From a virus (taxonomy: Duplodnaviria > Heunggongvirae > Uroviricota > Caudoviricetes), in the IMG/VR virus record IMGVR_UViG_2651870364_000001, positions 1 to 64,000 of that record: a DNA stretch of 64,000 nt; one strand, 5' to 3'. The translations under genes were made by a program, and so were the position numbers. Shown in pieces: positions 3,480-63,347 of this stretch. The notes under the pieces are model-generated. The model saw only the letters and a program-made list of their open reading frames with translations. It made no database searches and was not told where the DNA came from. The stretch's first letter is position 1. Each line of letters opens with the position of its first letter.

Positions 3480-4712
3480 ATGGCAAATACACCTAAGATT
3501 AGATTTGAAGGATTTACTGACAATTGGGAACAGCGTAAGGTTGGTGAACTATGCGAAAGAATCACAAGAAAGAATAAAAATGGTGAATCCGATCTGCCTC
3601 TCACGATTGCGTCACAATACGGTCTGATCGATCAGCGAGACTTCTTTAATAAGGTAGTTGCAGCCAAGGATATGTCAAATTATTACCTCCTGAAGAAGGG
3701 AGAATTTGCATACAATAAGAGCTATTCAAATGGTTTTGATTATGGTTCTATAAAACGCCTTAATGCTTATGAACAAGGCTGTTTGTCGACATTGTATATT
3801 TGCTTTGGAATCACATCTGATGATATAGAATCAGATTACCTGGAGTGTTTCTTTGATACACTTAAATGGTACTCAGACATAACAATGATTTGTGCTGAAG
3901 GGGCAAGAAATCATGGACTTTTAAATGTAGATACAAAGGCATTTTTTGATGAAGTAACTATCGAAATGCCTACATCTAAGGACGAACAAAAAAAGATTTC
4001 AGCATATTTGAATAACCTCGATAACCTTATCACCCTTCATCAGCGTAAGTGTGACGAGACAAAAGAATTAAAAAAATATATGCTTCAAAAAATGTTTCCG
4101 AAAAAAGGTGAGAAAGTTCCAGAAATTCGATTTGCTGGATTTACTGACGATTGGGAACAGCGTAAGTTCGGTGAGTTATTAAATGAGACCAGAGAAAAGA
4201 CTACTGTAGAAGATGAGGATACATTACTTTCATGTGCAATAGATGGAATGTTTCTCAACTCTGAGTTATTTAGTCACTTTAGAGGCTCATCCAATATTGG
4301 ATACTTAAAAGTAAAAAAGAACGATTTGATTTTATCAGCACAGAACTTACATTTAGGAAATTGTAATGTCAATTTACGCTTCGAACATGGCATAATATCG
4401 CCTGCTTATAAGGTTTATGAACTGATAAACTGTAATCCATTGTTTATGCAAGCATGGATCAAGCAAGATAAGACAAAAGATTTCTTTTTAAAGGCATCGA
4501 CTGAAGGGGCAAGTGTTTGTAGAAAAAATATAGTTTGGGAAGAATTATATAAGCAGGAGTTGCCTGTTCCGAAAATTGATGAACAGGAAAAAATTGGAAA
4601 GTTCTTTCATGAACTCGATAACCTTATCACCCTTCATCAGCGGAAGTGTGACGAGACAAAAACAGTAAAGAAGTACATGCTACAAAATATGTTTCCAGGA
4701 AAGGACGATTAA
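3480..4712 (+). CDS. hsdS: Type I restriction-modification system, specificity subunit S
   Basis: There are two target-recognition domains. Each is followed by the same conserved repeat (LDNLITLHQRKCDETK, found twice). The start codon overlaps the hsdM stop. Confidence 0.85.
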   Translation: MANTPKIRFEGFTDNWEQRKVGELCERITRKNKNGESDLPLTIASQYGLIDQRDFFNKVVAAKDMSNYYLLKKGEFAYNKSYSNGFDYGSIKRLNAYEQGCLSTLYICFGITSDDIESDYLECFFDTLKWYSDITMICAEGARNHGLLNVDTKAFFDEVTIEMPTSKDEQKKISAYLNNLDNLITLHQRKCDETKELKKYMLQKMFPKKGEKVPEIRFAGFTDDWEQRKFGELLNETREKTTVEDEDTLLSCAIDGMFLNSELFSHFRGSSNIGYLKVKKNDLILSAQNLHLGNCNVNLRFEHGIISPAYKVYELINCNPLFMQAWIKQDKTKDFFLKASTEGASVCRKNIVWEELYKQELPVPKIDEQEKIGKFFHELDNLITLHQRKCDETKTVKKYMLQNMFPGKDD

Positions 4713-41610: not shown

Positions 41611-41683
41611 TGTGCCTAATGGGATTCGAACCCACGACACCTCGATTAAAAGTCGAGTGCTCTGCCAACTGAGCTACAGGCAC
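41611..41683 (-). tRNA. tRNA-Lys (anticodon TTT)
   Basis: Folded manually. Acceptor stem GTGCCTG/TAGGCAC, D-arm GCTCAGTTGGCAGAGC, anticodon loop CTTTTAA, T-loop TTCGAAT. Length 73 nt. Confidence 0.8.
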
Positions 41684-41838
41684 TTAGAAATATTACCTTT
41701 CTCACTCTCTCCTAAAAGAGCGAGCTTTCACGACTATTCCACATTACATAGCCAATCTTAATGGACTCGTCCATCAGTGTTATATCAGTCCGAAAACTAT
41801 AGTGGGCAATAATAATTTAATATTAATTTTGTTTAAAA

Positions 41839-41914
41839 TAGACCTTCTGGGACTCGAACCCAGGACAGACACGGCTTATAAGGCCGCCGCTCTAACCAAC
41901 TGAGCTAAAGGTCC
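41839..41914 (-). tRNA. tRNA-Ile (anticodon TAT, reads AUA) - isotype tentative
   Basis: Cloverleaf has acceptor GGACCTT/AAGGTCT, D-arm GCTCAGTTGGTTAGAGC, anticodon stem GCGGC/GCCGT with loop CTTATAA, and T-arm CTGGG TTCGAGT CCCAG. Confidence 0.65.
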
Positions 41915-42213
41915 AAAAGTGGAATCCCAAACAATCTCACAGATTCCTGCTACGAGTTACCGTGCATCAGCCAAGCATCGGATTATCGTAGGTTTTTCGG
42001 TATTTTTTCATCACTAAGGCTTTTAGTGTTTTCCTCATGTTTCACGTTAGATTTTCGTACTAACAAGCTACAACTGTCGACTTAGTAGCAACGTTCAGTC
42101 CTAAATACTTAGGTTAGATTCCTCTGAATGCTATCTAACCTAATTTTAATCAGTTAATCTAATCAGTTAGTTAATGTAATCACTTAGTTAATCATTTGGT
42201 TTGCAAACCTGAG

Positions 42214-42285
42214 TAGCTCGAAGGAGAATCGAACCCCTGTCTCCACCGTGAAAGGGTGGCATCTTAACCACTTGACTATCGAGCC
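42214..42285 (-). tRNA. tRNA-Glu (anticodon TTC)
   Basis: Has acceptor GGCTCGA/TCGAGCT, anticodon stem CCACC/GGTGG with loop CTTTCAC, and T-loop TTCGATT. Confidence 0.75.
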
Positions 42286-42413
42286 ATGCTATTTGAACTA
42301 AGCTTTGGGATCCTATTCGAAATCAGATCCTTTGCTACGCGCGATTTTTTCGTTCTTCTTACAGCCAGGGGACGATGTCCCCTAACCGCAAAGGCTAATA
42401 GTTTAGCCCTAGA

Positions 42414-42485
42414 CTGGGGTACTCGGATTTGAACCGAGGAATTAGGGAGTCAAAGTCCCCTGCCTTACCGCTTGGCGATACCCCA
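42414..42485 (-). tRNA. tRNA-Gln (anticodon TTG)
   Basis: Has acceptor TGGGGTA/TACCCCA, anticodon loop CTTTGAC, and T-arm CTCGG TTCAAAT CCGAG. Confidence 0.75.
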
Positions 42486-42660
42486 TTACCCGGCTTTTCA
42501 GCCGGATAGAAAAATGTAGGAGGTATAATATCTACAGATTTAATTCTGTAGACTGCTGACAAAAGGATTTGCACCTTTACGAGATTGTACTTCTCTCCAG
42601 AGTTTCTCACTCCTGTGTCTACTTCCACCATGTCAGCAAATCAGATTCTTGAATCTGAGA

Positions 42661-42732
42661 TAACTCCAACGGGGATCGAACCCGTGTTACCGCCGTGAAA
42701 GGGCGATGTCTTAACCGCTTGACCATGGAGCC
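42661..42732 (-). tRNA. tRNA-Glu (anticodon TTC), second copy with G-U pairs at the acceptor end
   Basis: GGCTCCATGGTCAAGCGGTTAAGACATCGCCCTTTCACGGCGGTAACACGGGTTCGATCCCCGTTGGAGTTA. The loop is CTTTCAC and the T-arm is canonical. Confidence 0.7.
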
Positions 42733-52699: not shown

Positions 52700-54250
52700 T
52701 CGTTACTTAATTCACAAAATTCAAGAAACCTTTTTGTTAGCACGACATCTCATGGCTATGTCACCCTATCTTGTTGATTTTGTGACTTTATAGATAGCTC
52801 TATCTACTGGTATTAGCCTAATACCTCTACCCAATACAACTCAGGCTACTTTTAGTTTAGTTACCTTTTCTCGATGTTTTATTGGTACTGTATTCTGATA
52901 CTTCTTGATAATCTGATAAGCACCATTCACATCTGCGTTAATAATTTCTCCTGTGTTACTTACAAAACAACCTCTCGTCTTTCTACGCTTTTTGTTGTAA
53001 TAATTCTCCGTAGGTAGCTCTCCGTCCAAATAACTCGTACCACTTGTATACGCCTCATTCACAACTTTGACTGTGATACCTACAAGGTTAGCTTTATACT
53101 CTATCATCTGTATAAGCATCAAATACGGAATACCGACAAATACCTGGTTTGTTTTCTTACCCATCTTGACTTGTTGTTTCCAACCTTGATTATTACCTAT
53201 GACTATTATGCCTATATTATTACTAACCGCTATATCCACTACCATTCTACTTACCTTATGTAGATAGTCCTTGACTTTGTTGTTTCGTCTATCGGTCAAT
53301 CTACACATTCGCTTGGTAGCATAACGATTATTCAGTGTCTTTGCCAACTCTTGTAGTCTTGCTGTTTCTTTGTTATACCACTGATTGTTTGCTTTCAATG
53401 GTTTTCCGTCTATAATAACTGGGTTATGCGTGTTACTAAACACGGCAACCACCAAATTGTCTATATTCAGGTCTATACCCATTATCTCGTTACTATCAAC
53501 TGACTGTGCATCCGCTACCTTATACAGTATCTGTATCTTTATCCTACTGCCCGTAGTGATTATCCGTACTTGTGTGATATTATCGTGTCTTGCTCTGATA
53601 CGGATACCCTCAAATGCCTTTGGCAACTCGACATTTCTGTTACTGTCAACCTTGATATTCTGATATGTCAGCACAAGCCAATTTCTGCCCGTTTCTTTAT
53701 CATAATACCTCGGTGGTCTCGGTCTGCCCAACATCGAAGCTGGGTTTTTCTTCCACTGTTTCATACCTTGATAAAAGGCTTTCCAATCTCTACATATCAT
53801 TTGAATACATACTTGAGCCGATGTTGCACTCGGCATCTCTTTATATACATCAAGCCGTTTCAAATACCAACAGAGAAAATAAGCATCTGCTACAAAACCG
53901 TTAGTATTATCTATATACTTAGTGTGTTTTTCTTTACCTGTATGATTATACTCATAAATCGCACAGTTAATACGATATATAAAACCTTTCTCCCAACTGT
54001 CTAATATCTCGCCGTCTTTTAGTTTGTAACTAATCCGCGAACACTGTTTGATTATATAATTCGTATAATTCCGCAGGTTTTTAGACGCAAAACAATACCT
54101 ATCTACTTTCTCGTATAGGTCTTTATTCTTCCGTTTAATACTGTGAGTTTCTGTTAATATCATAATAAAACCTCGCTAAACCAACAACTCTGGAGGACAG
54201 AGCCTTTTTTGTTATATCTAGCGCGACATCTCTTTCGAGAAGGACATTTA
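52700..54250 (-). mobile_element. IS200/IS605-family insertion element, TnpB-only (IS1341-like); boundaries approximate
   Basis: A single tnpB ORF is flanked by ~140 nt (RE side) and ~90 nt (LE side) of noncoding sequence. A hairpin CTCTGGAGGACAGAG sits at ~54193-54207. No tnpA is present. Confidence 0.6.
52841..54163 (-). CDS. tnpB: TnpB (OrfB) RNA-guided nuclease family protein, RuvC-like, with a degenerate zinc finger
   Basis: RuvC-I (MGIDLNIDN), RuvC-II (VVNEAYTS) and RuvC-III (NADVNGAYQI) are present. The usual CxxC...CxxC zinc finger is replaced by TSGTSYLDG...RGCFVSNTG. Confidence 0.75.
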   Translation of the reverse strand: MILTETHSIKRKNKDLYEKVDRYCFASKNLRNYTNYIIKQCSRISYKLKDGEILDSWEKGFIYRINCAIYEYNHTGKEKHTKYIDNTNGFVADAYFLCWYLKRLDVYKEMPSATSAQVCIQMICRDWKAFYQGMKQWKKNPASMLGRPRPPRYYDKETGRNWLVLTYQNIKVDSNRNVELPKAFEGIRIRARHDNITQVRIITTGSRIKIQILYKVADAQSVDSNEIMGIDLNIDNLVVAVFSNTHNPVIIDGKPLKANNQWYNKETARLQELAKTLNNRYATKRMCRLTDRRNNKVKDYLHKVSRMVVDIAVSNNIGIIVIGNNQGWKQQVKMGKKTNQVFVGIPYLMLIQMIEYKANLVGITVKVVNEAYTSGTSYLDGELPTENYYNKKRRKTRGCFVSNTGEIINADVNGAYQIIKKYQNTVPIKHREKVTKLKVA

Positions 54251-55102
54251 TCGTAATTCGACATTTACTAAATCTCCTTTCAATTTATCTAGGATCATCT
54301 GTGCCGTTTTCTGGATGGTTGCCATTGAATCTTGAAGTTCTTTGACTTCTCTTCCAGTTGTCCAGGATCCAATATATTCAAACGAATAGTCCGATGTATC
54401 CAACCCCAAGCAATTCGCAACTACATAGCTAACAGACTCGGCTTCAACTTCCTTCGTCTGACGATCTTTCTTTTTTCCTTCTTCACTACTGTGCAGCAAG
54501 GAATGCGCCAATTCATGAAATACGGTTTTTATCGTCTGCAAATCAGACATGCCTTCTTTAATGGCAATCTTCTGTTTACTGAAAGAATAATACCCATTTG
54601 ATCCATTTGTGATCGTCTCAAATACAATCGGTACGGGAGCAATCTCTTTTACCTTTTCCAAGATCTTAGGAAGAAAATCTACCTGCCCGGTTAGCTCATT
54701 ACAAATTTTCGGTAGTGGCTCACCTTCCGTATCCGACACGTCAAATACATTCACTGCACGATACTTTATAATTTTCACTTCTTCGTAATCATTCTCTGAA
54801 TCATCAACTTTTTTATGTATGGTTATAGGACACGGAGCTATAATACTAATAGCATGTGCACCGTGCTTTACATGACGATTGAACTTACTTTGCCAAGTTT
54901 TGTATCCAGCTACCAACTGAGCTTCGGGTTTTTGCATAGCAATAAGCAAGCTGTTTGAAAACGAATATGTATGAAAAGCGCTCATGACCCGTAAGTATGA
55001 AGCATATTTTTCTGATGTAAGAAATTCTTTTACACCTTCTTCTAACTGTTTTGTTAGTGCTTCTATCTTCTTTGACACAAAATCACCTCCACTTGTTACC
55101 AT
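54248..55102 (-). CDS. ArdC-like antirestriction protein (N-terminal ssDNA-binding domain plus C-terminal HExxH metallopeptidase)
   Basis: Has an ArdC_N/DUF1738-like segment (YLRVMSAFHTYSFSNSLLIAMQKP...GYKTWQ) and a C-terminal FHELAHSLLH zincin motif. Confidence 0.55.
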   Translation of the reverse strand: MVTSGGDFVSKKIEALTKQLEEGVKEFLTSEKYASYLRVMSAFHTYSFSNSLLIAMQKPEAQLVAGYKTWQSKFNRHVKHGAHAISIIAPCPITIHKKVDDSENDYEEVKIIKYRAVNVFDVSDTEGEPLPKICNELTGQVDFLPKILEKVKEIAPVPIVFETITNGSNGYYSFSKQKIAIKEGMSDLQTIKTVFHELAHSLLHSSEEGKKKDRQTKEVEAESVSYVVANCLGLDTSDYSFEYIGSWTTGREVKELQDSMATIQKTAQMILDKLKGDLVNVELR

Positions 55103-57156: not shown

Positions 57157-57708
57157 TTATTTGCCCTTATTAAGAGCTTGTTCCATGATTTCCTTAATTA
57201 AGTCATCAGCTTCGTGACGTGTTTTAGACCAAAGTATCATTCTCTCGTTTATATCATAATGTTCTGTATATTTTGGAGAATAACTCGCTATTCCTATGTG
57301 ATAATGTACGTCAAAAATATTCACACACATATCACATAAAGTATTTAATGCACTATCCCAATCCAGATATTCTTCTGTAAAATTCTTTGTTTCTTCCTTT
57401 TCCCATTTCTGAGGTTCAGTTGTAAAATCGAATTTGCACAAATGTTTAAGATACTTATAATCTTGAGGGATAACGTTTTGAAAATAATTCATTTGAGTTA
57501 TTTCATCTTTAGCATACTGAGCTTTAATCATTTTTAATACCAGTTCAGTATCCTTCCAATCAAGATTAAAACGATTTGTATGAATTTCCATATTTTCCTT
57601 TCCCAATGAAAACACTATTTTATCGTGAGACATTTCTGCACCAATCTGATGTTCACCAGATTTCTCCGGGTACCTCACGGTAATAACCGTAATGGTACCC
57701 GGATACAT
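57157..57708 (-). CDS. Hypothetical protein
   Basis: A 183-aa ORF. Confidence 0.4.
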   Translation of the reverse strand: MYPGTITVITVRYPEKSGEHQIGAEMSHDKIVFSLGKENMEIHTNRFNLDWKDTELVLKMIKAQYAKDEITQMNYFQNVIPQDYKYLKHLCKFDFTTEPQKWEKEETKNFTEEYLDWDSALNTLCDMCVNIFDVHYHIGIASYSPKYTEHYDINERMILWSKTRHEADDLIKEIMEQALNKGK

Positions 57709-57804
57709 CTGGTTAGCTAAATATTGATAACCTCGTGTTTTCTGTCTGTCTCAACCTTATATACACTCAGTCTTTAATGCATGTAACTGTATCCAGTTGA
57801 TATT

Positions 57805-57862
57805 AACCAGTACCGGATCGCTGCATGAACAATAGGGAAGTTGCAGCGATCCGGTACTGGTT
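57805..57862. repeat. Perfect 21-bp GC-rich inverted repeat with a 16-nt spacer
   Basis: AACCAGTACCGGATCGCTGCA (tgaacaatagggaagt) TGCAGCGATCCGGTACTGGTT is seen directly. It is GC-rich within AT-rich DNA. Confidence 0.7.
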
Positions 57863-57970
57863 GAATTGAAAATCAGAACATTGTGTATATTGCTTCATGC
57901 TAAGCCATTACTTTGTGCTTAAACCTTCTTGCGTATTACTCTAGCTAACTGATATTATAAGCTCAGTGCC

Positions 57971-58005
57971 GAAAACGGGCTTGATCAATAGATAAGCCCG
58001 TTTTC
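57971..58005. terminator. Bidirectional Rho-independent terminator
   Basis: A 12-bp stem (GAAAACGGGCTT gatcaatagat AAGCCCGTTTTC) is flanked by an A-run and a T-run. Confidence 0.6.
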
Positions 58006-58106
58006 ATAATGAGCTTACTCATTAAATTGAAGATTATCACACAATACCTCTACGCTAAGTTCTTTGCTCAAGCTAAACTGTACATTGCTTTACTTTCTTG
58101 ATATTC

Positions 58107-58163
58107 GAAGGCAGTGCAGCGAACGCAGTCGTTGATCACGAAGGCGTTGGCTGTACTGCCTTC
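58107..58163. ncRNA. GC-rich stem-loop element (candidate structured RNA)
   Basis: GAAGGCAGT...ACTGCCTTC is a 9-bp stem enclosing ~39 nt of GC-rich sequence, in a region with no coding potential. Confidence 0.3.
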
Positions 58164-58250
58164 AGGATTGAAGACATAGCCATTACAAAGTATCCTGTAC
58201 TAGATTGTGACTGCACTGTGTTTGAACGAGATATTACGATAGTGAGCTGA

Positions 58251-58342
58251 TATATAACAGGTTGAAGCTGTCCAGCAGCCGGTGCTGAGTCAAATCTCTG
58301 ACTCAGCGACCGGAAGCTGGACACGCATCCATCTGTTATATT
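58251..58342. ncRNA. Nested long hairpin (candidate structured RNA or DNA cruciform)
   Basis: The outer stem is TATATAACAG/CTGTTATAT, the middle stem GCTGTCCAGC/GCTGGACA, and the inner stem CCGGTGCTGAGTCA/TGACTCAGCGACCGG. The 62-aa ORF at 58136-58324 is probably spurious. Confidence 0.35.
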
Positions 58343-58396
58343 AAATCATCAAACCTCATGCAGTCTTCTCTATCTCAAGAATTTAATTATGTATAC

Positions 58397-59290
58397 TTAT
58401 GCACCGAAGTGGAAGTTATTATCTGCAATAACCTTCTTAAGCATTGCAAGATAACGCCATCCTTCACCTGTATAAATATCCAACTTCGAATCTACGAATG
58501 CCATACCATCATCACCGTATAACTTATTCCCGTTATCATCGATGATGAATACATCATGAAACAAAATCATGTTCTGCAATGTATAGTAAGCACCAGATCC
58601 CTTGAAGGCAGCGACCCAATCGGAACACTTACTTGTCTTCCGAATCAGTTTAACATGAGGCTGATGATTGAAGTTATATACCAGGTTATGCAGCTCTCTG
58701 TATGAGTTGCATACTGTAACCCTTCGAAGCATGTTCTTAATCGGATTAAGCACTCGAGTCTTGACTTTATTAGATGGAACTCGACCAATACCGGAAACCC
58801 AAATATGATTACCACCCCTTGCCTTCAATTGAGCACATAAACTTGAAGTCTTATCCAGATAATCAGAAAACAAACTGAATACAACACCTTTTGTAAAGAA
58901 CGTTTGTCTTGCTCTAAAGCTTTCCGGATCTCTTGCTTCCATGTGCTTTAACACATTCAACTCATCCTCAAGCATACTGAACTGGTACATGTAACTGTAG
59001 TTCTTCTTCAGGTACTTGGAATAATCTCCACTGTTCAACATCTTAAACATCTGAGCCATCACCCAACGACGGTGAAGCTTGTTATTCTTGATATATCCGC
59101 TCTCAGCCACATCGCTAACATCTACACTGTCTCCTGTTGCAGCATTGACAACCGGATCGTTTAGATTATTGAAGTCAATAGTAATACTAGATCCTGCGTT
59201 CATTCCATTCGGAAGGTCGATTACGAATCGACTTGTATCAATTCCTGCTGCGTTTAATGCTTCTGCTCTGTTTATTCTGTTTGTTGCCAT
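58397..59290 (-). CDS. Hypothetical protein (297 aa) downstream of the RT operon
   Basis: An ORF with a reasonable RBS and no recognisable motif. Confidence 0.45.
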   Translation of the reverse strand: MATNRINRAEALNAAGIDTSRFVIDLPNGMNAGSSITIDFNNLNDPVVNAATGDSVDVSDVAESGYIKNNKLHRRWVMAQMFKMLNSGDYSKYLKKNYSYMYQFSMLEDELNVLKHMEARDPESFRARQTFFTKGVVFSLFSDYLDKTSSLCAQLKARGGNHIWVSGIGRVPSNKVKTRVLNPIKNMLRRVTVCNSYRELHNLVYNFNHQPHVKLIRKTSKCSDWVAAFKGSGAYYTLQNMILFHDVFIIDDNGNKLYGDDGMAFVDSKLDIYTGEGWRYLAMLKKVIADNNFHFGA

Positions 59291-59300
59291 AATTCTCTCC

Positions 59301-59801
59301 TTACTCGAACCAATCTTTTAACACAATTAATTCTGGATACTCCTGACTTTGCCAGAAGAACGAACCCCATTCAGGATTCCATTTTAATGTACCATTAAGT
59401 TTTGCACATAAAAACCAGACCTCCAATCTAGCCTTCGCTAATGATCTATCCTCTGCTAACATGAGCTTTTCATCGGGAATATCATCCATGCTTAATGCTT
59501 TGAAGTATCCCTTTCTTTTTCGCTCTTCTCTTGCAGATGGAAGTGAATATTTATACAGCGCAAATAATTTCTGCAACTCATCCAATGGATTATCGCAAGG
59601 TGTACTTAAGTCATATTCACTCTCTCCTTCCTTTATGATCTTTTTATCCCCCACACGAACTGTATTAGTTTTGAAATCAACGAAACATCTTTTCCCTTGC
59701 TGCACATTCCTTTGAACGTATTCTAATATATTCATTTTCTTTTTCCTTTTCTGTAGTACCTGGTGGATATTGCGTAGCGCTCTATTGCCTTGATGTATCA
59801 T
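59301..59801 (-). CDS. Hypothetical protein; the true start is probably the internal Met at ~59735 (about 144 aa)
   Basis: The first ATG abuts a large hairpin with no Shine-Dalgarno sequence. The second Met (MNILEY...) is preceded by AAAGGAAAAAG. Confidence 0.4.
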   Translation of the reverse strand: MIHQGNRALRNIHQVLQKRKKKMNILEYVQRNVQQGKRCFVDFKTNTVRVGDKKIIKEGESEYDLSTPCDNPLDELQKLFALYKYSLPSAREERKRKGYFKALSMDDIPDEKLMLAEDRSLAKARLEVWFLCAKLNGTLKWNPEWGSFFWQSQEYPELIVLKDWFE

Positions 59802-59880
59802 TCAGGACCCGAAATCCAAGACTGATCGGATGGAGGCTGATCTGCCTCACTGACTGATCAGTCTTGTCTCGGGTCCTGAA
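59801..59880 (-). ncRNA. Y-shaped structured element immediately downstream of the RT gene
   Basis: TTCAGGACCCGAAATCCAAGACTGATC...GATCAGTCTTGTCTCGGGTCCTGAA forms a 12-bp plus 10-bp interrupted stem around an inner GAGGC/GCCTC stem-loop. It lies in a ~195-nt noncoding gap. Confidence 0.4.
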
Positions 59881-59931
59881 TAGTACTGAATGAATCCGCA
59901 TAGTATCTACTGTTTACGCAAACATCATGAA

Positions 59932-61215
59932 TCACATGCTACGAACTATTGTGTCATAGGCATCACGACTGGTTCTTAACACATTCTGCATACACTTAAT
60001 CGTATAGTAACCATCTAGATTACCGATGATACTTCGATTAGTGGTCACATTTCTCCCCGTTCCTCTGCTGACTACCCCGAAGTCTCTACAGTCTTCATAA
60101 CCGATACCTCCAATCTTTCTTCTTTTCTGATCTCTTCCGCATGCTCTAATTGCATCCATAACAAATTTATCAAGCTCCAAAATATCATGATCGCAATTCA
60201 TTATCGGCAACACACTTGTTGCCCAAGAGAATCGACCATCTCCCCGATACATGTAATCATTAACTGCATTCAAGGCTTTCTGGACTGAAGTATGTTTTCT
60301 CTTGATAGTCCGACTCTCTATCTCTTTCTTAAAAGTCTTCAATCGTCCTTTACTCAAACTGATCATATCCCCTTTAATCGAGAACCCTAAGAACTTGAAC
60401 CAATGATTAGAATCAAGGTACTGCACTTTCTTAGGATTAAGTGTAAGACCCTTATCAGCAAGCAAAGCTGTCATAGCATCCATTGCAATATCATAATATT
60501 CTCCTACGTATAGACAATCATCAGAATATCTTACGTAGTACCCCGGTAGGTCAGACATAACATCATCTAGTTCGTATAAAACAGCATCAGCAAGAAACGC
60601 AGCTACAGCACATCCCTGCATTAAACTCATGTATTTCTTCTGTAAATGACCATCTACATCAAAGCAAAGATCCTGATGATAATATTCTCTGACAACATCT
60701 AAGATTACTGACTTTCCAACTCTTTGCTCGATCTTGTCAAATGTTGCGTCAATAAATTCAATTGGAACAGAATCAAAATACTTGCTTAAGTCAGACTTCC
60801 AGCCAATCGTTTTACCATGAGCTTCCCCTACAATATGAGCTACATCTTTTACAACTTGCCCACATCCGATTCCCTTTTGATAAGATTTGCACCGTTCATG
60901 AACCATATCAGAACAAAGCTCAAATAGCAGATTGCTTACAATTGATAAAAACAACCTATCTAATGACTCATTGATATATACTGTCCTAAATTCACCTGGC
61001 TTATCCTTCGGAATAAGTTGAGCATGTGGAGGAGCAATGGCATAATCTCCAGTTGCTACTCTTGCATAAAACGTAGCTCTTACCTTTGGGTCTGTTAACT
61101 GTAAGAGCAATGCTCGGTCGATGTCTTTATCGACACCAACCTGCAAAGCTTTCTCCCACGTTTCTTTCTTAAAACACAATTCCAACAAGCAATCCATATA
61201 ATTTTCACTCCTCAT
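59932..61215 (-). CDS. Reverse transcriptase (group-II-intron-like/RT0-7 plus thumb, no endonuclease domain; family unassigned)
   Basis: Has motif 1 (LIPKDKPGEFRTVYI), motif 2 (SDLSKYFDSV), motif 4 (MQGCAVAAFLADAVLYELD), the YxDD catalytic motif (YVRYSDDCLYV) and a motif 7-like segment (FKFLGFSI). Length 427 aa. Confidence 0.85.
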   Translation of the reverse strand: MRSENYMDCLLELCFKKETWEKALQVGVDKDIDRALLLQLTDPKVRATFYARVATGDYAIAPPHAQLIPKDKPGEFRTVYINESLDRLFLSIVSNLLFELCSDMVHERCKSYQKGIGCGQVVKDVAHIVGEAHGKTIGWKSDLSKYFDSVPIEFIDATFDKIEQRVGKSVILDVVREYYHQDLCFDVDGHLQKKYMSLMQGCAVAAFLADAVLYELDDVMSDLPGYYVRYSDDCLYVGEYYDIAMDAMTALLADKGLTLNPKKVQYLDSNHWFKFLGFSIKGDMISLSKGRLKTFKKEIESRTIKRKHTSVQKALNAVNDYMYRGDGRFSWATSVLPIMNCDHDILELDKFVMDAIRACGRDQKRRKIGGIGYEDCRDFGVVSRGTGRNVTTNRSIIGNLDGYYTIKCMQNVLRTSRDAYDTIVRSM

Positions 61216-62083
61216 TATATACTGAAACCGTTTTTGTGTTCATGTCATAAATATAAGGAACATCACTTAACTGTTCAGCTGGTACAACATCGCTATTATT
61301 AACCATTTTAATCATAGTTGCTAATTGCTTTGCTGAACCCATCTCCTTATCCGGAGATAAGACGATAATCTCATGAATTGAACTTGGTATAATTAACAAC
61401 TTAACATTTCCAATCCTATGGCAGATCTCATCCAGAACTTTTGGACTTGCAAGCATTCCAGCGCCATGTGTATTTCTCTTGTTTGATATTGCAAGCATTG
61501 TAGGACCAGCTGTTATTCCTAATAAATCCTTTCTAATGTCCATAACACTAATATCATTTAAAGAGTTTTCCTGTCCCTGTTTTAAGAGATCATCTACTGT
61601 CTTACCCCACATCTGTAAGTGCTGCTGGGTTACAACGAAAGAAGCAACTTTATCTCCTTCGTTTGAGACCATAACTCTAAAGTAAATAGCGAGATTTGCC
61701 AGCGGAACAAATGGGACACTTTCCTTAAAATCTGATGAAGTATTTTTACTTGCAGCACAAAGCGTGATCCTTGGTGCTACAACATTCCAGTGAGTTAACT
61801 GCTTCAAAATTTCGTCATCAACAGGAGGTTCTGTTGATAATGCTGCCACAGCTTTTGCTATACGTTCAATAAAGGCATCACGCGCATCTGAAACAGTATA
61901 TAATCCCTGACGATATTTTTCATAAATATCATCAACATAAACTGTCGGAGCTACCATTGAACCGTTCTGCCTTACGGTAACCCCTAATTTTTTCCCGGTT
62001 TCTTTTATGACTTCGTGAGTAGAAATCTCTAAATTTTCTGGTACATTGATTGATTTGATTAAGGATTCAATAAATGTTTTCAT
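61205..62083 (-). CDS. Hypothetical protein (292 aa) translationally coupled to the RT
   Basis: The 3' end overlaps the RT start by 11 nt. No recognisable motif. Confidence 0.45.
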   Translation of the reverse strand: MKTFIESLIKSINVPENLEISTHEVIKETGKKLGVTVRQNGSMVAPTVYVDDIYEKYRQGLYTVSDARDAFIERIAKAVAALSTEPPVDDEILKQLTHWNVVAPRITLCAASKNTSSDFKESVPFVPLANLAIYFRVMVSNEGDKVASFVVTQQHLQMWGKTVDDLLKQGQENSLNDISVMDIRKDLLGITAGPTMLAISNKRNTHGAGMLASPKVLDEICHRIGNVKLLIIPSSIHEIIVLSPDKEMGSAKQLATMIKMVNNSDVVPAEQLSDVPYIYDMNTKTVSVYNEE

Positions 62084-62135
62084 GTTTTTTCTTGTCCTTT
62101 CTTTATGCCTGACCTTCCGGTCGGATTATTGTTTT

Positions 62136-63347
62136 CTAAACTAATTCGAATAATGCAGTTTCAACCATATCCCAGCTGACTTCTGGGAAACGTATCATAA
62201 ATTTTCCAATAACAGACAACTTGCTTTCAGCTCTTAATGTTACTTCGTGATAGTATCCATTCTTATCACAGAAACCGAAGATACCTTCAACTTCAGTCTG
62301 TTCAAGATCTGACTTCAAAGCCATGTCTGAAATAGTAGCTGCGCAAGGTTCTTCTCCTTGTTTGTCGATATAACCATCGTAATCGTAATCATCATCCCAA
62401 GCATATCCGTATCCGTAGAGATAGCCGTTTTTTGTATATCCACCATATCTGTAAGTGTTTTCAATGTACTCGAACTGTTTTACGTCTTCTTCTGCAGATT
62501 TCTGAACCAGCTCTTTAACGACCTCAGCAGTATGCATCATTTCTTCATAAACAATTTCTTCATCGAAATGATGCTCATGATAATAACCGGAACTCAAATT
62601 AACGGAGCTGACTCCTGAAGCCTCAGAAAGATAACAGATATCAGAGCAAGATCCATACGCTTCCTTATATCCGGTTACTTCTTCAACGAAGGAGTGAAAA
62701 TCTTCATTTATATCTTCGTAAAAGACGCAATCACTGTTTCCACGTCTGTCTATCTCTACAATGAACTTCATCGAAGTCATTGCATCAGCCCATTTGCATT
62801 TACAAAACTTATTGGCTCCCACACATCCAATCTCTTCATCTTCGCAAAAGAGGATACTTGGACGCATCTCTGTATTTTTAACGATTTCAAGAATTGCCCA
62901 AATACCACAGCGATCATCACCACCAATTCCCTGAGGAGAAGCCAAAACATGTTTTCCATTTTCTTCTCTCTCGTAAAAATCTTTAATGACTTCTTTATGA
63001 ACCGTGTCCATATGAGCAACTAACATCACCGGATACTTTTCATCTCCCTGAATATAAAGATATCCATCACCATCATGAATATCTTTAGCTGGATAGTATC
63101 TTCGCATCTTGACTTTAAGCCACTTTTTAATCTGAGGCTGAGTCTTTTTTAGAAGCTTTACAAACTGCGGGAACGAAGTTTTATTTTTCGCTCCCTTAAA
63201 TTCATAATCTGGGTTACTATAGCCGGCTCGAACTCTGGTGGAAGTCTTATTAATGTAGTTACCAAATGAACTGTAATTATACAAAGAGCCGCCTGCATTC
63301 TTATTCCAAATATTACTTACTGTAGGTGTTGAAAAGTCTTTGCTCAT
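62136..63347 (-). CDS. M28/M20-family dinuclear zinc peptidase-like protein
   Basis: Metal-ligand pattern H (LVAHMDTVH), D (GIGGDDRCGIW), EE (CEDEEIGCVGA) and a later H (YYHEHH). Length 403 aa. Confidence 0.45.
   Translation of the reverse strand: MSKDFSTPTVSNIWNKNAGGSLYNYSSFGNYINKTSTRVRAGYSNPDYEFKGAKNKTSFPQFVKLLKKTQPQIKKWLKVKMRRYYPAKDIHDGDGYLYIQGDEKYPVMLVAHMDTVHKEVIKDFYEREENGKHVLASPQGIGGDDRCGIWAILEIVKNTEMRPSILFCEDEEIGCVGANKFCKCKWADAMTSMKFIVEIDRRGNSDCVFYEDINEDFHSFVEEVTGYKEAYGSCSDICYLSEASGVSSVNLSSGYYHEHHFDEEIVYEEMMHTAEVVKELVQKSAEEDVKQFEYIENTYRYGGYTKNGYLYGYGYAWDDDYDYDGYIDKQGEEPCAATISDMALKSDLEQTEVEGIFGFCDKNGYYHEVTLRAESKLSVIGKFMIRFPEVSWDMVETALFELV

What the first reader, a model, noticed from the sequence alone, without database searches (positions are those of the whole stretch)
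57709..58396. About 690 bp of GC-rich noncoding sequence packed with long inverted repeats
This intergenic region is unusually large for this genome and its GC content stands out from the AT-rich surroundings. It contains a perfect 21-bp inverted repeat (57805-57862) and a textbook bidirectional terminator (57971-58005). A 9-bp-stem element sits at 58107-58163, and a nested hairpin of about 90 nt spans 58251-58342. Long-range complementarity also exists between CAGTGCAG (58113-58120) and CTGCACTG (58211-58218). The only ORF here (58136-58324) lies in the GC-rich structure and looks spurious. The region could be one or more structured ncRNAs linked to the neighbouring RT. It could equally be a protein-binding cruciform such as a partition site, an origin or a recombination site, or the remnant of a foreign insertion.
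Basis: seen in the sequence. Interest (0 to 1): 0.65.

Follow-up and report, generated by a model that had tools for sequence, protein, structure and literature searches.

The report
Hairpin RNA array of phage reverse transcriptase
The hairpin-packed gap is a tandem array of about 150-base structured RNA modules that belongs to a phage reverse-transcriptase system (UG27) already reported in gut phages, so the finding is real and biologically interesting but not new.

Summary
The inverted repeats are real: the region folds far better than shuffled sequence (z about -17). The "GC-rich" claim is weak (0.40 against a window mean of 0.37).

The region is not a loose set of hairpins. It holds five tandem units on the minus strand with a period of 149-152 nt. 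Each unit has a closing stem, a long unit-specific hairpin and a conserved 19-nt box (ATCARNNNNNTANAGNWAY). A sixth unit lies between the RT gene and the next gene.

The array sits directly downstream of a three-gene operon: a UG27-class reverse transcriptase (PADLOC E 3e-200) and its two accessory genes (RTas346, RTas337).

The same box, always on the RT-sense strand and confined to the non-coding gap of the operon, recurs in more than 85 other UG27 loci. It appears 2-10 times per locus at spacings of about 150-180 nt. Covariation and sense-strand G-U pairs support the hairpins and closing stems as RNA.

Mestre et al. 2022 reported a putative UG27 ncRNA. A 2026 preprint that I could not read apparently describes "ncRNA arrays".

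The most likely function is RT-bound template or scaffold modules that yield hairpin cDNAs. That step is inferred, not shown.

Verdict: a new member of a known kind, with a split 1+5 layout.

The parts
59932..61215 (-). UG27-class reverse transcriptase (427 aa, catalytic RYSDD motif conserved)
   Evidence: PADLOC RT_UG27 E 2.6e-200, full length. Pfam RVT_1 E 2e-17. 4231 homologues at E<=1e-20. Y230-S231-D232-D233 are invariant in alignment A1.
59753..59910 (-). Array unit 0, in the RT-as346 gap (the position that holds the whole array in the 78 IMG/VR loci examined). Closing stem about 59910-59902 / 59759-59753; hairpin 59880-59799 (32 predicted pairs); box A 59794-59776 (ATCAAGGCAATAGAGCGCT, 2 mismatches).
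   Evidence: Sequence and fold, z -5.2. Pattern hit. Weak hit of the independent model R1, E 5.3.
59301..59735 (-). Accessory gene RTas346 (cluster 346). The true start is ATG 59735 (144 aa), not the 166-aa ORF start.
   Evidence: PADLOC RTas346 E 2.7e-51. Homologues P0241-P0243 start at this Met. L001 gene call is 144 aa.
58397..59290 (-). Accessory gene RTas337 (cluster 337), 297 aa, all-alpha, no known fold relatives
58209..58365 (-). Array unit 1. Closing stem 58365-58349 / 58225-58209; nested hairpin 58342-58251; box A 58251-58233 (ATCAGCTCACTATCGTAAT, 1 mismatch).
   Evidence: (I5, I9, I10, I20).
58080..58172 (-). Array unit 2. 5' box TTCAAT 58171-58166; hairpin 58163-58107; box A 58102-58084 (ATCAAGAAAGTAAAGCAAT, exact). 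Closing stem not clearly defined.
   Evidence: (I1). Best hit in the whole window of the independent box-A model R1: 58079-58105, E 0.0017.
57917..58073 (-). Array unit 3. Closing stem about 58073-58066 / 57924-57917; hairpin 58005-57971 (the 'terminator-like' 12-bp stem, extended 58024-57958); box A 57953-57935 (ATCAGTTAGCTAGAGTAAT, exact).
   Evidence: (I13). R1 hit 57928-57958, E 0.09.
57745..57877 (-). Array unit 4. Closing stem about 57877-57864 / 57758-57745; hairpin 57862-57805 (perfect 21-bp stem); box A 57801-57783 (ATCAACTGGATACAGTTAC, exact).
   Evidence: (I2). R1 hit 57781-57805, E 0.05.
57608..57742 (-). Array unit 5. Closing stem 57742-57735 / 57615-57608; hairpin 57713-57655; box A 57650-57632 (ATCAGATTGGTGCAGAAAT, 1 mismatch). 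It overlaps the first 39 codons of the ORF as listed.
   Evidence: (I3). R1 hit 57626-57653, E 0.93.
57157..57591 (-). Downstream gene of unknown function. Not part of the system. The probable true start is ATG 57591 (preceded by GGAAAGGAAAA) rather than 57708.
   Evidence: Sequence. Unit 5 occupies 57608-57742. The block identical to L001 ends at about 57636, after which the gene diverges. No family hit.

Best explanation
The region is the non-coding RNA array of a phage-encoded UG27 reverse-transcriptase system.

Shown:
- Six tandem modules lie on the RT-sense (minus) strand. One sits between the RT and RTas346, and five follow RTas337.
- The five downstream units have a period of about 150 nt.
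- Each module has a closing stem (P1), a short 5' box (UUCAAU-like), a long hairpin (P2) with a unit-specific sequence, and a conserved, mostly unpaired 19-nt box A (AUCAR-N5-UANAG-NWAY) in the junction between P2 and P1. The closing stem is not clearly defined for unit 2.
- The same module architecture and box occur in the non-coding gaps of UG27 operons in many other phages. There, hairpins and closing stems show compensatory changes and sense-strand G-U pairs.

Inferred:
- The array is co-transcribed with the operon.
- Box A and P1 are the handle by which the RT (possibly with RTas346/RTas337) recognises each module.
- The variable hairpins are the cargo, most likely copied into hairpin cDNAs in a retron-like way, or else held as scaffolds.
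- The benefit to the phage is unknown. Counter-defence or control of the infection cycle are the obvious candidates.
For: Gene context:
- RT_UG27 E 2.6e-200, RTas346 2.7e-51 and RTas337 9.2e-93 lie directly upstream on the same strand.

Periodic motif in the window:
- The motif has 3 exact and 2 one-mismatch matches at 58251, 58102, 57953, 57801 and 57650, all on the minus strand, spaced 149/149/152/151 nt.
- Only 2 other matches with one mismatch or fewer occur in the 64 kb, both strands counted.

Independent test:
- A sequence model built only from other loci places 4 of its 6 best window hits on these boxes. The top hit has E 0.0017.

Family-wide:
- The exact motif is present in 81 of 87 loci. 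It is always on the RT-sense strand and, in the IMG/VR loci, always inside the RT-RTas346 gap, 1-5 exact copies each.
- Spacings peak at 150-190 nt, with multiples where a unit is missed.
- Relatives closer to the window carry the large gap after RTas337, or split arrays: L082, L083, L084 and L087; L088, L090, L091 and L092.

RNA structure:
- z is about -17.
- In orthologous units, 11 and 4 pairs show double compensatory changes. The closing stem covaries (CG 20 / UA 9 / UG 6). There are many sense-strand G-U intermediates against few A-C cells.
- The window units fold into the same P1-P2 layout with box A mostly unpaired.

Literature:
- Mestre et al. 2022 (PMC9226505) report a putative conserved ncRNA with three long stem-loops next to UG27 RTs in gut phages.
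- A 2026 preprint mentions UG27 74 times, 'ncRNA array' 10, hairpin 33, cDNA 24 and 'cDNA synthesis' 3 times.

Other:
- The RT keeps its catalytic YSDD motif.
- Hairpins are almost purely Watson-Crick (G-U 6-7%) and fold equally well as the complement, as expected if the copy must also fold.
Against: - No expression or cDNA data exist for this window. Transcription, processing and reverse transcription are all inferred.
- The only close relative of the window's own array (L001) is 100% identical across it, so the window's hairpins cannot be tested for covariation directly.
- L089 shows 3 substitutions in one arm of unit 1, but the contig ends before the partner arm.
- The window hairpins have no sequence similarity to units of other arrays.
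- Box A of units 0, 1 and 5 is weak in the independent model.
- The closing stem of unit 2 is not clearly defined.
- Five of the six units are not in the position where Mestre et al. described the ncRNA.
- The contents of the 2026 preprint are known only from word counts.
- Hairpins of the wider set fold slightly better on the antisense strand, so strand assignment of the variable hairpins rests on the motif and the basal stems.
Confidence: 0.75

Rival explanations
1. The units are RT-associated RNAs but are not templates. They act as scaffolds or regulators that bind the RT or the accessory proteins (as stem-loop scaffolds do in some defence RT systems), or as stand-alone small RNAs or decoys, and no hairpin cDNA is made.
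For: Architecture and linkage are the same as for the best explanation. Nothing in the sequence identifies a priming site or a template boundary. RTas337 and RTas346 have no recognisable catalytic fold.
Against: The RT keeps its catalytic YSDD motif. The hairpins are almost purely Watson-Crick and fold as well in the complement. The unread preprint uses 'cDNA' 24 times and 'cDNA synthesis' 3 times alongside UG27.
Confidence: 0.15
2. A DNA-level element: iterons (box A) and cruciform-forming inverted repeats that serve as a replication origin, partition site or recombination site of the phage.
For: Repeated 19-nt boxes occur at regular spacing and the inverted repeats are near-perfect. The hairpins fold equally on both strands.
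Against: In every locus the boxes are on the RT-sense strand only, and they travel with the RT operon across unrelated phage backbones. Basal and closing stems keep pairing through sense-strand G-U pairs, which would be A-C mismatches in the other strand of a cruciform. Hairpin tips are replaced wholesale while pairing is kept. There is no GC-skew inflection or AT-rich unwinding element here.
Confidence: 0.05
3. Ordinary intergenic signals: transcription terminators of the RT operon plus a structured leader or attenuator of the downstream gene.
For: The hairpin at 57971-58005 resembles a terminator stem (GAAAACGGGCUU...AAGCCCGUUUUC). The region lies between two convergently organised transcription blocks of same-strand genes.
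Against: The terminator scan finds none here. Six hairpins at a fixed 150-nt period, each followed by a family-wide conserved box, are not explained by termination. One unit lies inside the operon, between the RT and RTas346.
Confidence: 0.03
4. A remnant of a mobile element or foreign insertion (MITE, IS end, retron, DGR template or CRISPR-like array).
For: A TnpB/IS605 OrfB gene lies about 4 kb away. The region contains inverted repeats.
Against: No copies of the hairpins occur elsewhere in the window or loci. There is no TR/VR repeat and no Rfam family hit. The RT is not of the retron or DGR class. There are no cas genes. The block is conserved in position relative to the RT operon.
Confidence: 0.02

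Closest known systems
UG27 RT-associated putative ncRNA of human-gut phages (Mestre et al. 2022, NAR, PMC9226505)
   Same: Same RT class and the same two accessory gene clusters (346, 337). Phage-encoded. A large non-coding stretch with long conserved stem-loops adjacent to the operon, not enriched in defence islands.
   Different: That paper describes one ncRNA with three long stem-loops in the RT-accessory-gene intergenic region. Here there are six modules, five of them downstream of RTas337. The tandem-module structure (P1, P2, box A, about 150-nt period) was worked out here.
'ncRNA arrays' of UG27 in the 2026 bioRxiv preprint 'Coevolutionary mining of prokaryotic non-coding elements with a genome language model' (10.64898/2026.09.22.753630)
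   Same: Judged from word counts only (UG27 74, 'ncRNA array' 10, hairpin 33, cDNA 24): apparently the same array-of-hairpins concept linked to cDNA synthesis.
   Different: The text could not be opened. I cannot say whether split or downstream arrays, the box A motif or a function are described there.
Retron msr-msd non-coding RNA
   Same: A closing stem formed by flanking inverted repeats (a1/a2-like P1). A conserved RT-recognition part plus a long variable hairpin that, in retrons, is copied into hairpin DNA. Encoded next to its RT.
   Different: The RT is not a retron RT (retron profiles E about 1e-6 to 1e-9 against 3e-200 for UG27). The conserved single-stranded box lies 3' rather than 5' of the hairpin. 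There are multiple tandem modules instead of one. No branching-G context was identified. It is phage-encoded, without a toxin effector.
ncRNAs of defence RTs DRT2 (UG2), DRT3 (UG3+UG8) and DRT9 (UG28)
   Same: UG/Abi RTs that depend on an adjacent structured ncRNA used as template and/or scaffold. Per Mestre et al., UG2 and UG27 are Class 2 and UG3+UG8 is Class 1. The DRT9 RT profile is a distant hit of this RT (E 2.5e-20).
   Different: Those systems have a single ncRNA per system, either upstream of the RT (DRT2, DRT9) or at the 3' end (DRT3). They are host-encoded defence systems. No Rfam or sequence similarity was found.
CRISPR arrays (architectural analogy only)
   Same: A short conserved element alternates with unit-specific sequence. 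Whole-unit gain and loss occurs between related genomes while the order of shared units is kept.
   Different: The period is about 150 nt. The variable parts are self-complementary hairpins. The conserved element is a degenerate 19-mer. There are no cas genes and no spacer-like matches.

Membership tests
UG27 RT system non-coding RNA (array) | Encoded next to a UG27-class RT together with cluster 346 and cluster 337 genes | tested here: met
   PADLOC RT_UG27 2.6e-200, RTas346 2.7e-51 and RTas337 9.2e-93, contiguous on the minus strand.
UG27 RT system non-coding RNA (array) | Located in the intergenic region between the RT and the first accessory gene (as described by Mestre et al. 2022) | tested here: inconclusive
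   Only unit 0 (59753-59910) lies there. Units 1-5 lie after RTas337. The same split or downstream layout occurs in relatives L083, L084, L087, L090, L091 and L092.
UG27 RT system non-coding RNA (array) | Long stem-loops with conserved secondary structure | tested here: met
   z is about -17. There are six long hairpins. Covariation is seen in orthologous units of other arrays. It is not testable on the window's own hairpins, because L001 is identical.
UG27 RT system non-coding RNA (array) | Shared strand-specific box A motif at about 150-180-nt spacing (a feature derived here) | tested here: met
   Independent model R1, built without window sequences, places 4 of its top 6 hits on the boxes.
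UG27 RT system non-coding RNA (array) | Transcribed, and bound or copied by the RT | not testable with these tools
   No expression or cDNA data are available.
Retron (msr-msd + retron RT) | RT of the retron clade | tested here: not met
   Best retron profiles: E 5.4e-6 (PADLOC) and 3.7e-9 at 36 bits against a cut-off of 235 (NCBIfam). RT_UG27 scores 664 bits.
Retron (msr-msd + retron RT) | A single ncRNA with a1/a2 repeats, msr stem-loops 5' of the msd hairpin and a priming G | tested here: not met
   There are six tandem modules. The conserved box is 3' of the hairpin. No Rfam hit was found. A priming G could not be assessed.
Diversity-generating retroelement | Template repeat and variable repeat pair (about 100-150 nt, adenine-specific differences) | tested here: not met
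   No such direct repeat occurs anywhere in the window.
Group II intron | Intron RNA domains and a maturase-type RT above the family cut-off | tested here: not met
   TIGR04416 scores 92 bits against a cut-off of 300. There is no group II intron Rfam hit in the window.
Intrinsic (bidirectional) terminator | A GC-rich stem with a short loop followed by a U tract | tested here: inconclusive
   57971-58005 has a 12-bp stem, but the loop is 11 nt and there are only four U's, inside the stem. The scan does not call it. It occupies the hairpin slot of unit 3.
CRISPR array | Near-identical 24-48-nt repeats separated by 25-70-nt spacers, usually with cas genes | tested here: not met
   The only repeats are a degenerate 19-mer at 150-nt spacing. 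No cas genes occur among the neighbours.

The most novel reading that the evidence does not exclude
The array is a phage-carried library of exchangeable hairpin cassettes. Each module is loaded on the UG27 RT through the conserved box A/P1 handle and copied into a distinct hairpin single-stranded DNA. Whole-unit gain and loss, together with wholesale replacement of hairpin tips between closely related phages, would then reflect an arms race in which the hairpin DNAs or RNAs act as decoys or inhibitors of host defences, or as specificity determinants. The split and relocatable layout would mean that modules function autonomously wherever they are transcribed.
Probability: 0.2. Interest if true: 0.8.

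Novelty: new member of a known kind. Interest (0 to 1): 0.45.

Why it matters
UG27 is the one large UG/Abi reverse-transcriptase group that is carried mainly by phages rather than by their hosts. Mestre et al. found 1447 dereplicated gut-phage genomes with it. Its function is unknown.

Seeing the associated non-coding DNA as a modular array gives concrete handles for experiments:
- a conserved handle plus a variable hairpin;
- units that are gained, lost and re-tipped between related phages;
- arrays that can be split around the accessory genes.

It also affects annotation. The hairpins are not terminators. The 62-aa ORF across them is probably spurious. The downstream gene probably starts 117 nt later than the listed ORF.

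A cultured phage with the same system (Bacteroides phage BS-TP1) makes the question experimentally accessible.

Tried and rejected
- Rfam at permissive and gathering thresholds gave only chance miRNA-like hits and tRNAs.
- Megablast of the region against GenBank phages found no match.
- A search for DGR template/variable repeats found none.
- blastn of the region against the gaps of other UG27 loci showed no similarity beyond 18-22-mers.
- nhmmer iteration on the short motif lost sensitivity and was abandoned in favour of an IUPAC pattern and a sequence-only covariance model.
- The first motif variant (ATGAAAC...), taken from loci L082-L087, is not enriched in the window. The window uses the ATCA[AG] variant that the IMG/VR loci examined also use.
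- Comparison with L001 was uninformative, because the array is 100% identical.
- L089 ends inside unit 1.
- A viral-contig scan with the single RT sequence found nothing. The alignment-based scan worked.
- Sequence search of PDB found no UG27 structure and nothing for the accessory proteins.
- Hairpin arms were searched against the window and all loci for guide-like matches; only chance 9-12-mers turned up.
- The 2026 preprint could not be opened under three identifiers.

Full report
OBSERVATION. The stretch 57709-58396 lies between two minus-strand ORFs, 57157-57708 and 58397-59290.
- a perfect 21-bp pair at 57805-57825/57842-57862;
- a 12-bp perfect pair at 57971-57982/57994-58005;
- a 26-nt pair, 85% complementary, at 58107-58132/58138-58163;
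- a nested hairpin at 58252-58341.

The region is far more structured than chance. Its free energy is -291.5 kcal/mol on the minus strand and -283.1 on the plus strand, against about -185 for shuffles, giving z of about -17.

Two details do not hold up. First, GC is 0.401 against 0.372 +/- 0.025 for the window, and 11% of equal-sized windows are at least as high. Second, the 'textbook terminator' is not called by the terminator scan: its loop is 11 nt and it has no U tract outside the stem.

GENE CONTEXT. The three genes directly upstream on the minus strand are a UG27-class reverse transcriptase (59932-61215; PADLOC RT_UG27 E 2.6e-200), RTas346 (E 2.7e-51) and RTas337 (58397-59290; E 9.2e-93). 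Pfam sees only RVT_1 in the RT. The RT is not of the retron, DGR or group II intron class, and no DGR repeat pair exists in the window. The catalytic YSDD motif is invariant among homologues.

Mestre et al. 2022 (PMC9226505) defined exactly this three-gene system. They found it in 1447 dereplicated, mostly human-gut phage genomes and found no defence-island enrichment. They predicted a conserved ncRNA with 'three long stem-loops' in the intergenic region next to the RT, and noted that it needs experimental validation.

THE REGION IS A TANDEM ARRAY. On the minus strand every hairpin is followed within a few bases by the same 19-nt box, ATCARNNNNNTANAGNWAY.
- In the whole 64-kb window, both strands, this pattern has three exact matches (58102, 57953, 57801) and two one-mismatch matches (58251, 57650). 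All are on the minus strand, spaced 149, 149, 152 and 151 nt.
- Only two other sites in the window match with one mismatch or fewer.
- Because the pattern was partly derived from the window, I built a sequence-only model from 24 boxes of other loci and scanned the window with filters off. Its best hit (E 0.0017), second, fourth and sixth hits are these boxes.

The fifth hairpin (57713-57655) and its box overlap the first 39 codons of the downstream ORF as listed. The closing stem of that unit reaches 57608, and a Shine-Dalgarno-like GGAAAGGAAAA precedes ATG 57591. The gene therefore probably starts there.

A sixth unit lies in the 196-nt gap between the RT stop and the true RTas346 start (ATG 59735). 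It has a hairpin of 32 predicted pairs at 59880-59799 and a two-mismatch box at 59794-59776, with z of -5.2.

COMPARATIVE EVIDENCE. The RT has 4231 homologues at E<=1e-20.
- In 78 IMG/VR loci (RT about 57% identical) the layout is RT, then a 1.2-1.9-kb gap without consistent ORFs, then RTas346 and RTas337.
- Exact matches to the box occur in 81 of 87 loci fetched. They are always on the RT-sense strand and, in the IMG/VR loci, always inside that gap, 1-5 per locus.
- With up to two mismatches allowed there are mostly 6-9 boxes per gap. Spacings peak at 150-190 nt, with multiples where a box is missed.
- Loci whose RT is slightly closer to the window (about 60%) place the large gap after RTas337, as the window does, or split it. 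L082 has 1593 nt with at least 9 boxes. L083 has 2+2 units either side of the accessory genes. L084 and L087 follow the same pattern. These loci use a box variant, TATATGAAAC-N3-TAcAGAAATG.
- Further relatives confirm split arrays: L088 has 2 units before RTas346; L090 has 2 before and 5 after; L091 has 5 after; L092 has 2+1.
- A cultured phage, Bacteroides phage BS-TP1 (PQ571274.1), carries the system. Its RT is annotated as 'tail protein', and a 1.35-kb unannotated gap holds about eight units with an ATCGA box variant.

The window's own hairpins are unique in sequence. The only close relative, L001, is 100% identical across the array, so they cannot be tested for covariation directly.

UNIT ARCHITECTURE. 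Alignments of orthologous units from the IMG/VR arrays show three features.
- There is a long hairpin whose base is conserved. Its apical part is replaced wholesale between related phages while pairing is kept. Eleven pairs in this unit alignment carry double compensatory changes.
- A closing stem has its 5' strand upstream of a UUUAY/UUCAAU box and its 3' strand about 10 nt after box A (the YTGAGY 'box B'). It shows covariation, for example CG 20 / UA 9 / UG 6.
- Box A lies in the junction between the two helices.

Pairs that vary on one side mostly pass through G-U on the sense strand, with few A-C cells. This argues for an RNA of the RT-sense strand rather than a DNA cruciform.

The window units fold the same way, with box A mostly unpaired. 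The closing stem of unit 2 is not clearly defined.

Clustering units by sequence shows that related phages share an ordered core of units and differ by gain or loss of whole units in the middle of the array.

The variable hairpins are almost purely Watson-Crick (G-U 6-7%). They fold as well, or slightly better, as the complementary strand.

MECHANISM.
Shown: a strand-specific modular array that is physically and evolutionarily linked to the UG27 operon, with RNA-level structural conservation.

Inferred:
- It is co-transcribed with the operon. No promoter or terminator was called between RTas337 and the array.
- The RT, perhaps with the accessory proteins, recognises box A and the closing stem.
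- The variable hairpins serve as template, giving hairpin cDNAs in a retron-like way, or as scaffold.

The template idea rests on three points: the intact catalytic motif, the Watson-Crick-only hairpins, and word counts in a 2026 preprint that I could not open. That preprint has UG27 74 times, hairpin 33, array 27, 'ncRNA array' 10, cDNA 24, 'cDNA synthesis' 3 and ssDNA 5 times.

The hairpins match nothing else in the window or in the fetched loci.

COMPARISON AND NOVELTY. This is a member of the UG27 ncRNA family described in 2022 and, apparently, of the 'ncRNA arrays' of the 2026 preprint. It is not in Rfam 15.

It works most like a multiplied retron msr-msd (closing stem, conserved handle, variable hairpin), but it fails the retron membership tests. 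It resembles a CRISPR array only in the alternation of conserved and variable parts and in unit turnover.

What is particular here is the 1+5 split layout with most units after RTas337, which recurs in this branch of the family.

I rate it a new member of a known kind. Its existence, however, is already in the literature.

Noticed in passing
window 57592-57708: The first 39 codons of the 183-aa ORF (57157-57708) are occupied by array unit 5 (hairpin, box A and closing stem). ATG 57591, preceded by GGAAAGGAAAA, is the likelier start.
   Followed up: partly
window 57636-59290 vs L001 9906-11560: The window and its closest relative L001 are essentially identical from RTas337 through the end of the array (one substitution in about 1.65 kb). 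Just past the last box A the downstream gene diverges (90% protein identity). The RT (96% protein identity) is also less conserved than this block. This may mark a recombination boundary at the array end.
   Followed up: partly
window 61205-63347: A DUF5688 gene (overlapping the RT start by 11 nt) and an M28-like peptidase gene lie directly upstream of the RT on the same strand. The same arrangement is seen in L001. DUF5688 genes also occur a few kb upstream of the RT in L082 and L084, so there may be an extended association with UG27 systems.
   Followed up: no
window 52841-54163: A TnpB (IS605 OrfB / Cas12f-like TNB) gene lies on the minus strand about 3.5 kb downstream of the array. No search was made for its omega RNA or IS ends. 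L084 has Y1 transposase and TnpB-like genes near its array as well.
   Followed up: no
window 54248-55102: An ArdC-N plus M78/IrrE-type metallopeptidase fusion (an anti-restriction-like protein).
   Followed up: no
window 41611-42732: A cluster of five tRNA genes on the minus strand (Lys, Ile-tat, Glu, Gln, Glu). Rfam adds a sixth, weak tRNA-like hit at 42554-42637 (33.7 bits) that ARAGORN did not call.
   Followed up: no
window 3498-4696: Internal direct repeats (119 nt at 80% identity and 55 nt at 85%, about 600 nt apart). They look like the duplicated halves of one gene. Not examined.
   Followed up: no
L093 (PQ571274.1 79351-81962): In the cultured Bacteroides phage BS-TP1 the UG27 RT is annotated as 'tail protein'. 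The following 1.35 kb, which holds about eight hairpin units with an ATCGA box variant, is unannotated.
   Followed up: partly
L002-L081, RT-RTas346 gaps: Related phages share an ordered core of array units and differ by presence or absence of whole units in the middle of the array. Within one orthologous unit, the apical half of the hairpin is replaced by unrelated but still self-complementary sequence.
   Followed up: partly
window 58136-58324 (minus strand): The 62-aa GTG-start ORF runs through the hairpins of units 1 and 2. It is most likely spurious, but it could not be tested by conservation because the only relative is identical.
   Followed up: no
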